A DNA stretch of 64,000 bases from the human T2T-CHM13v2.0 reference genome, Homo sapiens: contig CP068257.2 of the NCBI GenBank assembly GCA_009914755.4, forward strand, positions 34,848,001 to 34,912,000. Direction: 5' to 3'. Below the pieces are notes generated by a model. It was given only the letters and a program-made list of their open reading frames with translations, searched no databases and had not been told where the DNA came from. Below are positions 16,917 through 43,705 of this stretch, piece by piece; positions within the stretch are counted from its first letter, which is position 1, and each line of letters begins with the position of its first letter. Made by a program: the position numbers and the translations under genes.

Positions 16917-17070
16917 CAATGTTTCAATAGATGGATGGATGGATGGATGGATGGATGGATGGATAGACTGACGGATGGATGGATGGATGGATGGATGGAT
17001 GGATGGATAGACGGATGGATGGATGGATGGATGGATGGATGGATGGATGGATAGATGGATGGATACATAG
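16917..17070. repeat. (GGAT)n tetranucleotide microsatellite, ~35 units with GACT/GACG/AGAC interruptions
   Basis: Direct read: gatggatggatgg...atagactgacggatgg...atagacggatgg... Confidence 0.95.
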
Positions 17071-20454: not shown

Positions 20455-22030
<1,576 letters not shown>

Positions 22031-22817: not shown

Positions 22818-23174
<357 letters not shown>

Positions 23175-30404: not shown

Positions 30405-30713
<309 letters not shown>

Positions 30714-30912: not shown

Positions 30913-31547
30913 TGGAGAAGAAAGCAGAGGAAGGAAGGAAAGAAGGGTGGAAGGAAGGAAGGGAGGAGGGGAGGAAGGGAGGGAGGAAGGGAGGAAGGAA
31001 GGGAGGGAGGAAGGGAGGAAGGGAGGGAGGGAGGGAGGGAGGAAGGGAGGGAGGAAGGGAGGGAGGGAGGAAGGGAGGGAGGGAGGAAGGGAGGGAGGAA
31101 GGGAGGGAGGGAGGGAGGGAGGAAGGGAGGGAGGGAGGGAGGGAGGGAGGGAGGAAGGGAGGGAGGTAGGGAGGGAGGGAGGGAGGGAGGGAGGGAGGGA
31201 GGAAGGGAGGGAGGGAGGGAGGAAGGGAGGGAGGGAGGAAAGAAGGGAGGAAGGAAGGGAGGGAGGGAGGAAGGGAGGGAGGGAGGGAGGAAGGGAGGGA
31301 GGGAGGAAGGAAGGGAGGGAGGGAGGAAGGGAGGGAGGGAGGGAGGAAGGGAGGGAGGAAGGGAGGGAGGGAGGAAGGGAGGTAGGGAGGGAGGGAGGGA
31401 GGGAGGGAGGGAGGAAGGGAGGGAGGGAGGGAGGAAGGGAGGGAGGAAGGAAGGGAGGGAGGGAGGGAGGGAGGAAGGGAGGGAGGAAGGGAGGGAGGGA
31501 GGGAGGGAGGAAGGGAGGGAGGGAGGGAGGGAGGAAGGGAGGGAGGC
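30913..31547. repeat. Very long (GGAA)n/(GGGA)n polypurine/polypyrimidine microsatellite, ~630 bp with occasional GGTA/AGAA variants
   Basis: Direct read: gaaggaaggaaagaagggtggaaggaaggaagggaggaggggaggaagggagggaggaagggagg... Uninterrupted purines on the plus strand, ending ...gggaggcaggcggcaggcacacgcacac. Confidence 0.97.
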
Positions 31548-32124
31548 AGGCGGCAGGCACACGCACACAGGCTCTCTTTGCTTTCCAACAGGAAGGGGCT
31601 CAGGGTCTGTTTTCTTTTCCCTTCCTTTCAGATGGATCTTTCATATCTCCAATAACTCTTATCTTTCAGCAAACTCCAACAGGCCCCAAACGAGCTGAGA
31701 AAATATCCAACTTCAAAGGTTTTGCACAAATCATCTTAAAGGCCTGACCTAAGCCCGGAAAGCCGGAACGAAGCCCAGAAATCAGTCCTCATTTCATCGC
31801 CGTTTAGCCAAGACACCTTTCCCGTCCACAGATCACATCTGCCCCCTTCTGCCCCCGCCCAGGTCCCAACCACCTTGAGACACCTGCGTGATCCATCCTC
31901 AAAGCAATGAGTTAGGAGCCGCACTCCTGGTCCTTGGCCGGTGGCTTCAGTGTTATTCCGGGGGGCTGGGTGGGGGCACCTGTGGGGACTGCCCCGTGAG
32001 GCTGTGGTTTAATTTCCTTTGCTACTTTCCTTAGCTCTTCAGTCTCAGTCTCAGCCACTGAAATGTGTCTTGGCCACTGGTGGTACAGCACAGGGTGACA
32101 CTGTTGTCAGCGAGAGGAAGATGC

Positions 32125-41963: not shown

Positions 41964-43705
41964 TTACAAACGGGACACACACATTTCCTGTTTAATTCCA
42001 CCCTGCACAGTGCTGATTCACTATGATACCATTGGTCTCAGAAATACTTTTCTTAAAAGTTGTATATAATTACCACATATATACACATAAATAAAAATAT
42101 ACACACATATATGTGTATACATGCACACACACATACATATCACACTCTGTGCTCTCAGCCAGGGAGAGCTGGGGAAGGAGATTGTCTTTGGAGTCCTTAG
42201 CACATTACACTATATTACAAATGCTCTTGGCCGAAGAGTATTCTCAGTGCTGTCCTGAGTTGTGTTCTGCAAAATGCACTGTTTATTCCACTGTGATCTT
42301 CCTTTCTGCCACTCATTTCATGTTCTAGGGAACAGTTTTGACTCACAGTTATGGGTAAAAGGTGTTTGAGTGATTGTTCTAGACTCACCCTAAAGAGACC
42401 AAGGAAGAATATTATGCCAAGTGTCAAAAAGCTACTTTCCAGGCAGCTCAAGTTGCCTTCATGGAAATGATGAAGGAAGCAGAGGGTGAAGTTTAAGGAC
42501 AGGTGGAAATCCTTCACAATCCTATCGGGCATCATTAACAGCACTGTAAGGCTGGGAGAGATGACCAAGGGGATTTGAAAACAGCATTAGGGTAGGAAGC
42601 CGGAATTAAGCTTATAAAGACCCATAGAGCACGCAGTCCTTCTATGTCATGGCCTATCTGACAGATGCGTTGGGGGGCCCCGGAGAGCCAGGAGTAGTGG
42701 GCAGAGGGCAAGCAAGCACAGAGCCATCCTCTACAGTGGTCAGAGGGCAAGCAAGCACAGAGCCACCCTCTACAAGGACACCGGAGCACTGAGGCCATTG
42801 CTCTTGGGAAGAAACCACCGAGGTTTCTGTTAGCCAGGGTGGGCCAGCTGAATGTCTGCAACATCACTGAAAACAGTCACAAGTTGGAGAGACAATGGTC
42901 TTTTTAGCACTCCCCTTGGGGGAAGCAGTGTGGGAGATGGAAGGTTCTGGAGTAAGGGGTTATGCCTCGAGGGGCTGGCTTCAGGACATTGTCCTGTGGG
43001 TTGGTAGGCGTCCTTAATTGTGGGGCTTTTGTTTTGCTGAGAGGAGGCTGCAAGTTTGAGGCAAAAAATGAATTCTCTGGAGGTAAAGAAGCCGCTGAGG
43101 CTGCTCCCCGCTGGCCCTTTCTTCCTGCTGGGCCTTTCCTTTATTTATTTAGAGTACTCAGCCTTTCCTCTAGGTAAATATTGAAAGAATATATAAAAAC
43201 CAATAGTTTAAACAGTGTCAAATTATTATCCTGTCTCCACCTGGCCCTGGGCATGGCTGCGGTGTGTATTGTGCTAGGTTCTGACTCTCTTTGGTTGAGC
43301 AGGAGGCGGCCCTAGCGCCACAGGTGGAGATGGCTGCCCACCTGCTGTGAAGGCACTTACGGTGTCCGCCATCTTGGGAGCAGCTCAGACCGGAAACCAC
43401 AGGCTGGAGAACGCAACTGGGAATGGAAAGCAGGAGTGGCTCTTTGTGTTGCTTTGGGCTGAATTAGGAGAAGGGTAGATGTTTGGAGGTGGTGTTGGCT
43501 GCAGGGAAGAAGGAGTTAGAATGGGATGAAAATTTTTGGCCCAGAGAAGGGGAGCAGTGGTTGTTGGCTGAGGCATTTATTGAAGGATTCCCATGGAGAA
43601 GATACATATGGTTGGGGGCAGAGTCCCTGTTGAGAGGGAGTGCTGCCGGTTCCATACAGAAATTCCTTCTCCCTGACAACCGCAGATGTCTTAGCAGCAT
43701 TGCTT

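What the first reader, a model, noticed from the sequence alone, without database searches (positions are those of the whole stretch)
30913..31547. A ~630 bp uninterrupted polypurine (GGAA/GGGA)n tract, a candidate H-DNA/G4-forming, hypervariable element and potential ETS/EWS-FLI1-type GGAA-microsatellite site
This is the largest low-complexity block in the window: about 150 tetramers, with purines only on the plus strand. It produces the spurious 297/273/247-aa ORFs in the supplied track on both strands. It is not attached to any Alu tail; the nearest Alu poly-A is 200 bp upstream. Established knowledge: long polypurine-polypyrimidine mirror repeats adopt triplex (H-DNA) structures, and the GGGA-rich stretches can form G-quadruplexes. 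They are replication-slippage hot spots and are typically highly length-polymorphic. GGAA microsatellites with at least 4 repeats are bound by ETS factors, and in Ewing sarcoma by EWS-FLI1, where they act as neo-enhancers. A more CpG-rich unique segment (31740-31990) lies immediately downstream. I cannot tell from sequence alone whether this tract has enhancer activity.
Basis: partly seen in the sequence, partly recalled or inferred. Interest (0 to 1): 0.5.

Follow-up and report, generated by a model that had tools for sequence, protein, structure and literature searches.

The report
Long interrupted AGGG simple repeat
This is an ordinary, unusually long (about 620 bp) human tetranucleotide simple repeat made mostly of GGGA units with scattered GGAA units; it can probably fold into unusual DNA shapes, but it lacks the run of consecutive GGAA units that an Ewing-sarcoma-type enhancer needs.

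Summary
It holds 107 GGGA units and only 38 GGAA units, so it is an (AGGG)n microsatellite with AGGA-type interruptions. A long-read survey lists AGGG among the ten commonest human tetramer motifs, with AGGA as its commonest interruption. The tract is not uninterrupted: three T's split it into purine runs of 218, 215 and 163 bp. The longest perfect GGAA run is 3 units. EWS-FLI1 needs at least 4 consecutive units, and chromatin opening rises sharply only above about 11, so the GGAA-microsatellite reading fails on its defining feature. A true (GGAA)14 lies elsewhere, at 22822-22879 on the minus strand. The G4 and H-DNA potential is supported by sequence: 109 G3 tracts, 24 canonical G4 motifs, 99.5% purine and imperfect mirror symmetry. 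The 297/273/247-aa ORFs are repeat read-through. The tract is not the tail of the upstream Alu. Length polymorphism, protein occupancy and gene context could not be tested; five searches for other copies of the locus found nothing. Verdict: a known kind of simple repeat, structure-prone, of low interest.

The parts
30926..31546 (+). Compound (AGGG)n microsatellite with AGGA (GGAA-phase) interruptions. It is 621 bp and about 150 units, all in one 4-nt register, with the purines on the + strand.
   Evidence: TRF places it at 30928-31550. Unit census: GGGA x107, GGAA x38.
30914..30960 (+). Degenerate, more A-rich 5' edge of the tract, with GAA, GAAA, GGAAA and GGAA units. It holds the only two (GGAA)3 runs, at 30929-30940 and 30949-30960.
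   Evidence: The G fraction is 0.55 in the first 80 bp, against 0.64-0.71 further in.
30948..30948 (+). T interruption (GGGT).
31167..31167 (+). T interruption (GGTA), followed by the longest pure run, (GGGA)8, at 31169-31200.
31383..31383 (+). T interruption (GGTA) at the same unit position as 31167, followed by (GGGA)7.
30936..31235 (+). First of two internal blocks of about 300 bp. It starts with AGGAAAGAAGGG.
   Evidence: It aligns to 31236-31527 at 93% identity with two 4-nt gaps. The score is 194, against 162 +/- 8.4 for unit-shuffled controls (0 of 200 reach it). This is suggestive only.
31236..31527 (+). Second internal block of about 300 bp. It starts with the same AGGAAAGAAGGG motif.
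31547..31572 (+). 3' boundary of the tract: a short GGCAGGCGGCAGGCACACGCACACAG transition into unique sequence.
30405..30713 (+). Upstream Alu with its poly-A tail. It is a separate insertion flanked by the target-site duplication TCAGGGTTTCT and is not the source of the tract.
31740..31990 (.). Single-copy downstream segment, mildly enriched in CpG but not a CpG island. It contains two CCGGAA ETS-type cores at 31755-31760 and 31763-31768.

Best explanation
The feature is a long compound tetranucleotide microsatellite, (AGGG)n on the + strand and (CCCT)n on the - strand, with AGGA-type interruptions.

Origin (inferred): it is most likely a neutral product of replication slippage in a purine-rich seed, with G/A transitions converting units. 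There was probably also one larger unequal exchange that roughly doubled a block of about 300 bp.

Function (inferred): it has no sequence-specific biological role. Its effects are physical. When the strands separate during replication or transcription, the purine strand cannot form hairpins and is free to fold into tandem G-quadruplexes. The duplex can fold back into intramolecular triplexes (H-DNA). If the tract is transcribed with the purine strand as non-template, it favours R-loops.

Expected consequences (inferred): orientation-dependent slowing of polymerases and moderate length instability. It is not an EWS-FLI1-type GGAA microsatellite.

Shown here: anatomy, motif content, non-chance status and independence from the upstream Alu. 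Inferred: actual structure formation, fork or polymerase stalling, and polymorphism.
For: - Unit census: 107 GGGA against 38 GGAA, all in a single 4-nt register. TRF's best consensus is (AGGG)n.
- AGGG is among the ten most frequent human tetramer motifs, and AGGA is its commonest interruption, found in 40% of alleles (PMC13082088).
- The tract holds 109 G3 tracts, 24 non-overlapping canonical G4 motifs and 13 non-overlapping (GGGA)3GGG.
- ViennaRNA folding with G4 enabled tiles each 120-nt sample with 6-7 quadruplexes. Watson-Crick folding energy is 0.0 for both strands.
- Purine content is 99.5%. There are 30 mirror centres with perfect arms of at least 10 nt. Mirror identity is 0.94 at 50-nt arms and 0.91 at 100-nt arms.
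- GGGA repeats are a top motif in G4 ChIP-seq peaks (PMC9757062).
- (GGGA)n blocks T7 transcription when it is the non-template strand, 7-fold more than GGGT repeats and 3-fold more than GGGC repeats. The authors attribute this to R-loops (PMC3561996).
- (AAGGG)n forms H-DNA and G4 and stalls replication forks. Overlap with in-vivo S1-END-seq peaks rises to about 90% for very long homopurine tracts (PMC11077069).
- Half-versus-half alignment of the tract exceeds all 200 unit-shuffled controls.
- No coding, RNA-family or CpG-island signal lies on or next to the tract.
Against: - No experimental or population data for this locus could be reached, so structure formation and instability are extrapolated from other repeats.
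- Purity is low for a structure-former. The longest pure run is 8 units and perfect mirror arms reach only 16 nt. Interrupted homopurine repeats are reported to be less prone to in-vivo H-DNA (PMC11667243).
- AAGGG repeats showed no BG4-ChIP overlap in human cells, so G4 formation in chromatin is uncertain.
- ViennaRNA's G4 energies are not DNA-calibrated.
- The block-duplication signal is modest, and the two GGTA variants do not align with each other in that arrangement.
- The density of MAZ-type GGGAGGG cores (74) leaves protein-mediated function open.
Confidence: 0.85

Rival explanations
1. One reading: the tract is a GGAA microsatellite that ETS factors bind, and that EWS-FLI1 binds in Ewing sarcoma, turning it into a neo-enhancer.
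For: The tract holds 40 GGAA cores, all in 4-nt phase. A CpG-richer unique segment with two CCGGAA cores lies 200 bp downstream.
Against: - The longest consecutive GGAA run is 3 units, and there are zero (GGAA)4.
- EWS/FLI needs at least 4 consecutive GGAA units. Enrichment is greatest at 8-14 consecutive units (PMC3899989).
- Maximum consecutive length, not total GGAA count, predicts accessibility and binding, with a hinge near 11 (PMC13082088).
- 26 of the 32 GGAA runs are single units separated by GGGA units, which lack the GGAA core.
Confidence: 0.04
2. The tract is a functional protein-binding platform. It would act as a dense array of MAZ-type GGGAGGG sites or AHR/KLF6 non-consensus XRE (GGGA repeat) sites. 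If it is transcribed in the + direction, it would be an hnRNP H/F GGGA-binding sponge. In these roles it would act as an insulator, a pause element or a regulatory element.
For: - There are 74 GGGAGGG cores in the tract, against 12 on the rest of the + strand, and 8 runs of at least 5 GGGA units.
- The MAZ (GGGAGGG) and hnRNP H (GGGA) motifs are documented in PMC2275096.
- The AHR NC-XRE is a GGGA repeat, present as 5 copies in the mouse Serpine1 promoter (bioRxiv 10.1101/2023.05.01.538985).
Against: - Motif density is an automatic by-product of the repeat unit.
- There is no promoter context. The window has no CpG island, and no exon or RNA gene was found near the tract.
- Known NC-XRE and MAZ elements are short and promoter-proximal.
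- No occupancy data could be reached.
Confidence: 0.08
3. An explanation of origin that is compatible with the main one: the tract descends from the A-rich 3' tail of an old retroelement. A-to-G changes and slippage would have converted it through (AAAG)n and (AAGG)n to (AGGG)n.
For: - Both other purine or pyrimidine tracts in the window sit directly on Alu tails: (TTCC)14 at 22822-22879 and (AAAG)n/(GA)n at 57866-57961.
- The tract's 5' edge is more A-rich and degenerate.
- The CANVAS AAGGG repeat arose in an AluSx3 poly(A) tail (PMC11667243).
Against: - The upstream Alu is 212 bp away and has its own target-site duplication.
- The 211-bp left flank is single-copy in the window and was not recognisable as a repeat element.
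- No transposon library was available to test for an older element.
Confidence: 0.3

Closest known systems
(AGGG)n/(CCCT)n human tetranucleotide microsatellites with AGGA interruptions
   Same: The unit, the phase and the characteristic interruption are the same. The motif is one of the ten most frequent tetramer motifs in T2T-CHM13, and AGGA is its commonest interruption (PMC13082088).
   Different: This tract is much longer than typical, at about 150 units. Reference loci in that survey span 4-228 total units. It is heavily interrupted, with a maximum of 8 consecutive units against a record pure allele of 29.
EWS-FLI1-responsive GGAA microsatellites (for example NR0B1 and the 6p25 locus)
   Same: Both are purine-only, 4-nt-phased repeats that contain GGAA cores.
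   Different: This tract lacks the defining consecutive GGAA run (3 units, against at least 4 required and about 11 or more for strong activity). GGAA is the minority unit. A true example, (GGAA)14, lies at 22822-22879 in the same window.
CANVAS RFC1 (AAGGG)n repeat
   Same: Both are homopurine repeats with G3 tracts that can form both H-DNA and G4. The CANVAS repeat stalls polymerases and replication forks in an orientation-dependent way.
   Different: The CANVAS repeat is a pentamer, pure, and expanded to hundreds or thousands of units within an Alu tail in a known intron, and it is pathogenic when biallelic. This tract is a tetramer, is interrupted and has no known gene context.
PKD1 intron 21 polypurine-polypyrimidine tract
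   Same: Both are long, asymmetric purine/pyrimidine tracts of hundreds of bp to kb that contain multiple mirror repeats. The PKD1 tract forms H-DNA and stalls replication in vitro and in vivo (PMC11667243).
   Different: The PKD1 tract is 2.5 kb, is not a simple tetramer array, and has 23 perfect mirror repeats. Here the perfect mirror arms reach at most 16 nt.
AHR non-consensus XRE (GGGA repeats) and MAZ GGGAGGG sites
   Same: The core sequence is identical.
   Different: Those are short (3-5 units) promoter-proximal elements. Here there are more than 100 units with no promoter context.

Membership tests
EWS-FLI1-type GGAA microsatellite | At least 4 consecutive GGAA units, the minimum for binding and activation (PMC3899989). 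| tested here: not met
   The longest run is 3 units (30929-30940 and 30949-30960). There are zero GGAAGGAAGGAAGGAA matches.
EWS-FLI1-type GGAA microsatellite | A long maximum consecutive run: about 11 or more for the sharp rise in accessibility, with enrichment greatest at 8-14 (PMC13082088, PMC3899989). | tested here: not met
   The GGAA run-length distribution is 26 runs of 1 unit, 4 of 2 and 2 of 3.
EWS-FLI1-type GGAA microsatellite | EWS-FLI1 occupancy with an open-chromatin or H3K27ac signature in Ewing sarcoma cells. | not testable with these tools
   No ChIP or ATAC data are accessible.
(AGGG)n tetranucleotide microsatellite | A head-to-tail tandem array of a 4-nt unit with AGGG dominant. 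| tested here: met
   TRF periods 16 and 20 have the consensus (AGGG)n at 89% match. 107 of about 155 units are GGGA, and all units are in register.
(AGGG)n tetranucleotide microsatellite | The typical single-base variant interruption, AGGA. | tested here: met
   There are 38 GGAA-phase units, equivalent to AGGA. This matches Table 1 of PMC13082088.
(AGGG)n tetranucleotide microsatellite | Length polymorphism between haplotypes. | not testable with these tools
   Five attempts to find other copies of the locus returned nothing.
H-DNA-forming homopurine-homopyrimidine mirror repeat | One strand is (nearly) all purine. | tested here: met
   618 of 621 bases are purine. The pure runs are 218, 215 and 163 bp.
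H-DNA-forming homopurine-homopyrimidine mirror repeat | Mirror symmetry of the purine strand. | tested here: inconclusive
   Short motifs qualify: 30 centres have perfect arms of at least 10 nt, the maximum arm is 16 nt, and these cover 34% of the tract. Long-range symmetry is imperfect: 0.94 identity at 50-nt arms, 0.91 at 100 nt and 0.86-0.89 at 150-300 nt. Purity is reported to matter in vivo (PMC11667243).
H-DNA-forming homopurine-homopyrimidine mirror repeat | S1/P1 nuclease or chemical-probing sensitivity. | not testable with these tools
   This needs experiment or S1-END-seq tracks.
G-quadruplex-forming sequence | At least 4 G3+ tracts separated by loops of 1-7 nt. | tested here: met
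   The tract has 109 G3 tracts, 24 non-overlapping canonical motifs and 13 non-overlapping (GGGA)3GGG. Predicted G4 tiling is shown.
G-quadruplex-forming sequence | Demonstrated folding (G4-seq, BG4 or CD/NMR). | not testable with these tools
   There is only literature on GGGA repeats in general (PMC9757062, PMC3561996). AAGGG repeats lacked BG4 overlap (PMC11077069).
Retroelement poly(A)-tail-derived microsatellite | The repeat directly abuts the 3' end of a retroelement, inside that element's target-site duplication. | tested here: not met
   The nearest Alu ends 212 bp upstream and its TSD (TCAGGGTTTCT) closes before the tract. An older, unrecognised element could not be tested.
MAZ / AHR NC-XRE regulatory element | GGGAGGG or tandem GGGA motifs. 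| tested here: met
   There are 74 GGGAGGG cores and 8 runs of at least 5 GGGA units.
MAZ / AHR NC-XRE regulatory element | Promoter-proximal position and factor occupancy. | not testable with these tools
   The window has no CpG island and no exon was found nearby. No annotation or ChIP data are available.

The most novel reading that the evidence does not exclude
Despite its ordinary composition, this exceptionally long G4- and MAZ-motif array could act as a structural genome element. It might be an orientation-dependent replication or transcription barrier, or a boundary bound by MAZ or by G4-binding proteins, and it might influence the neighbouring CpG-richer segment at 31740-31990. Its length variation between people would then modulate that effect.
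Probability: 0.06. Interest if true: 0.55.

Novelty: already known. Interest (0 to 1): 0.15.

Why it matters
It matters little for biology. It is one long instance of a common class of human simple repeat. In practice, such tracts cause spurious ORF calls, as seen here. From general knowledge, they are also expected to cause polymerase, PCR and sequencing drop-outs and to be plausible sites of fork slowing and indels. The useful correction is that total GGAA content is not the criterion for Ewing-sarcoma neo-enhancers; consecutive GGAA length is. On that criterion the candidate in this window is the (GGAA)14 at 22822-22879, not this tract.

Tried and rejected
1. Finding other haplotypes or species to test length polymorphism. 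All five attempts returned nothing:
- exact look-up of the 297-aa read-through ORF;
- protein search with the unique 73-aa right-flank translation;
- exact-DNA scans of metagenome contigs with the right flank and the left flank;
- exact-DNA scan of prokaryotic genome contigs with the left flank.
These collections evidently do not hold this human locus.

2. Locus and gene identification.
- Rfam at gathering thresholds gave 0 hits over the whole window.
- Codon-usage ranking of open frames, a Pfam scan and a PDB-sequence scan of non-repeat ORFs from about 23-32 kb found no exon near the tract. They found only a PSMD4 processed pseudogene about 9 kb away.

3. A simple higher-order period. In-register autocorrelation is flat at 0.88-0.91 and shows no dominant lag. 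The 216-bp spacing of the two GGTA variants is not a global period.

4. Alu-tail origin from the adjacent Alu. I rejected this because of that Alu's target-site duplication.

5. One literature query failed on syntax.

Full report
OBSERVATION

The sequence at 30913-31547 contains a long tandem purine tract. Tandem Repeats Finder places it at 30928-31550. The best-scoring descriptions are periods 16 and 20 with consensus (AGGG)n, at 89% matches and score 899. GC skew and AT skew are about 1.0 across it.

It is the largest simple repeat in the window; the next largest is a 135-bp (GATG)34. It is far beyond chance. In 100 first-order Markov simulations of the window, the longest homopurine or homopyrimidine run averaged 20 nt and never exceeded 28, against 218 observed.

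Their products are GREGG... and LPPS... repeats, so they are read-through of a stop-free repeat.

The upstream Alu (30405-30713) ends 212 bp before the tract. It is bracketed by its own target-site duplication, TCAGGGTTTCT, so the tract is not that Alu's tail.

The downstream segment 31740-31990 has 11 CpG in 251 bp. That is in the top 0.5% of the window, but its o/e of 0.50 is below CpG-island criteria. No 1-kb bin of the window qualifies as a CpG island.

CORRECTIONS TO THE OBSERVATION

The tract is not uninterrupted and not purines only. T's at 30948, 31167 and 31383 divide it into purine runs of 218, 215 and 163 bp.

More importantly, it is not a GGAA repeat. Parsed into units, it holds 107 GGGA, 38 GGAA and about ten other units, all in one 4-nt register. 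GGGA runs reach 8 units (31169-31200). GGAA occurs as 26 single units, 4 doublets and only 2 triplets, both in the degenerate A-richer 5' edge. There is no (GGAA)4 anywhere in the tract.

WHAT IT IS

The architecture is AGGG units interrupted by the single-base variant AGGA. A 2026 long-read survey of human tetrameric microsatellites describes exactly this. AGGG is among the ten most frequent tetramer motifs in T2T-CHM13, and AGGA is its most common interruption, present in 40% of alleles (PMC13082088).

At about 150 units, this locus is at the long end of the reference range reported there (4-228 total units). It is heavily interrupted.

The two halves of the tract (30936-31235 and 31236-31527) both begin with AGGAAAGAAGGG. 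They align at 93% identity with only two 4-nt gaps. The alignment score is 194, against 162 +/- 8.4 for unit-shuffled controls, and none of 200 controls reaches it. This suggests growth partly by a block duplication of about 300 bp as well as by unit slippage. I treat it as suggestive only, because the two GGTA variants do not align with each other in that arrangement and simple autocorrelation shows no dominant higher-order period.

The two other purine or pyrimidine tracts in the window both sit directly on Alu tails. That is the usual birthplace of such repeats. For this tract a retroelement-tail origin can be neither shown nor excluded, because the left flank is single-copy in the window and no transposon library was available.

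SURROUNDINGS

The window is Alu-dense: roughly 30 of the 40 intra-window repeat blocks have Alu-like size and copy number. It is CpG-depleted (o/e 0.25) and has no Rfam family hit.

Codon-usage ranking plus Pfam and PDB-sequence scans found no exon near the tract. The only clear protein signal is a frameshifted, intronless copy of PSMD4/Rpn10 at about 20665-22027 on the minus strand. Its match to human PSMD4 has E = 1.4e-56 and is about 92% identical over 108 aa. It is a processed pseudogene.

A gene list in PMC12779367 places PSMD4P1 at 21q22.13. From memory, at least one other PSMD4 pseudogene exists, so this placement of the window is only tentative.

Whether the tract is transcribed, and in which direction, could not be determined.

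MECHANISM

The structural potential is shown by the sequence:
- The tract has 109 G3 tracts, 24 non-overlapping canonical G4 motifs (of 28 on the whole + strand) and 13 non-overlapping (GGGA)3GGG.
- As a single strand, the purine strand has zero Watson-Crick folding energy. With G4 folding enabled it is tiled by a quadruplex about every 16-20 nt. The energies are not DNA-calibrated, so only the pattern is meaningful.
- For H-DNA, the homopurine requirement is met. Mirror symmetry is imperfect: perfect arms reach at most 16 nt, 30 centres have arms of at least 10 nt and these cover 34% of the tract. Mirror identity is 0.94 at 50-nt arms, 0.91 at 100 nt and 0.86-0.89 at 150-300 nt.

The rest is inferred from the literature:
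- GGGA repeats are a top motif in G4 ChIP-seq peaks (PMC9757062).
- (GGGA)n blocks transcription strongly when it is the non-template strand, 7-fold more than GGGT and 3-fold more than GGGC repeats. The authors attribute this to R-loops (PMC3561996).
- The related (AAGGG)n repeat forms H-DNA with Mg2+ and G4 with K+, and it stalls replication forks in yeast and human cells.
- Overlap of homopurine repeats with in-vivo S1-END-seq peaks rises to about 90% for very long tracts (PMC11077069).

There are also cautions. [quoted passage not shown] AAGGG repeats showed no BG4-ChIP overlap.

My committed reading is this. The tract is a neutral simple repeat with no sequence-specific function. Its main effect is as a physical impediment to replication, and to transcription if it is transcribed, in an orientation-dependent way. 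It is probably a moderately length-variable site.

THE EWS-FLI1 / ETS IDEA

The defining criterion is a run of consecutive GGAA units. At least 4 are needed for binding and activation, and enrichment is greatest at 8-14 (PMC3899989). Long-read data show that the maximum consecutive length, not the total GGAA count, predicts accessibility and EWS-FLI1 binding, with a sharp rise above about 11 units (PMC13082088).

This tract reaches 3, so it fails the test.

The same window holds a perfect (TTCC)14, that is (GGAA)14 on the minus strand, at 22822-22879. It abuts the tail of an antisense Alu and passes the sequence criterion.

OTHER READINGS

The tract automatically contains 74 MAZ-type GGGAGGG cores, 8 runs of at least 5 GGGA units (the AHR non-consensus XRE motif) and 30 GAGGAAG junctions (motifs from PMC2275096 and bioRxiv 10.1101/2023.05.01.538985). 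Without promoter context or occupancy data, these are by-products of the unit sequence. A protein-platform function remains a low-probability possibility.

WHAT COULD NOT BE TESTED

Chromatin and factor occupancy, actual non-B structure formation and gene context could not be tested either. Five searches for other copies of the locus returned nothing.

VERDICT

The feature is a known kind of simple repeat, notable only for its length. Interest is low (0.15).

Noticed in passing
window 22822-22879 (pyrimidine run 22818-22895), minus-strand GGAA: A perfect (TTCC)14, that is (GGAA)14, abuts the poly-T end of an antisense Alu that starts near 22896. It meets the consecutive-GGAA criterion for EWS-FLI1-responsive microsatellites (at least 4 units, and above the hinge near 11). 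The tract in the finding does not.
   Followed up: partly
window about 20665-22027, minus strand: A processed pseudogene of proteasome subunit PSMD4/Rpn10. VWA-domain and UIM-region segments are spread over shifting frames with no introns. The match to human PSMD4 has E = 1.4e-56 and is about 92% identical over 108 aa. It is possibly PSMD4P1 (21q22.13 according to a gene list in PMC12779367), but that identity is unconfirmed.
   Followed up: partly
window 16930-17064: A (GATG)n microsatellite of 33.8 copies at 91% match. It is the second-largest simple repeat in the window.
   Followed up: no
window 57866-57961: A 96-bp pure purine tract, (AAAG)n with an internal (GA)n, directly continues the poly-A tail of a sense Alu. 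It illustrates the tail-to-microsatellite route.
   Followed up: partly
window 31755-31768: Two closely spaced CCGGAA cores (ETS-type, CpG-containing) lie in the CpG-richer unique segment 200 bp downstream of the tract. They are closer to canonical ETS sites than anything inside the tract. Their significance is unknown.
   Followed up: no
window 30936-31235 and 31236-31527: The tract appears to consist of two blocks of about 300 bp that share the start motif AGGAAAGAAGGG. They are 93% identical, and their alignment score exceeds all 200 unit-shuffled controls. The same rare GGTA variant occurs at 31167 and 31383, each followed by a (GGGA)7-8 run, but these two sites do not align in the two-block arrangement. 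More than one duplication event may be involved.
   Followed up: partly
whole window: Alu density is very high: 40 intra-window repeat blocks of at least 100 bp cover 22% of the window, and most have Alu-like size and copy number. There is no CpG island and no Rfam hit in 64 kb. This is consistent with intronic or intergenic DNA in a gene-rich, Alu-rich region.
   Followed up: partly
window 42696-42774: A 39-bp unit is repeated twice at 95% match (AGTGGGCAGAGGGCAAGCAAGCACAGAGCCACCCTCTAC). I did not examine it.
   Followed up: no
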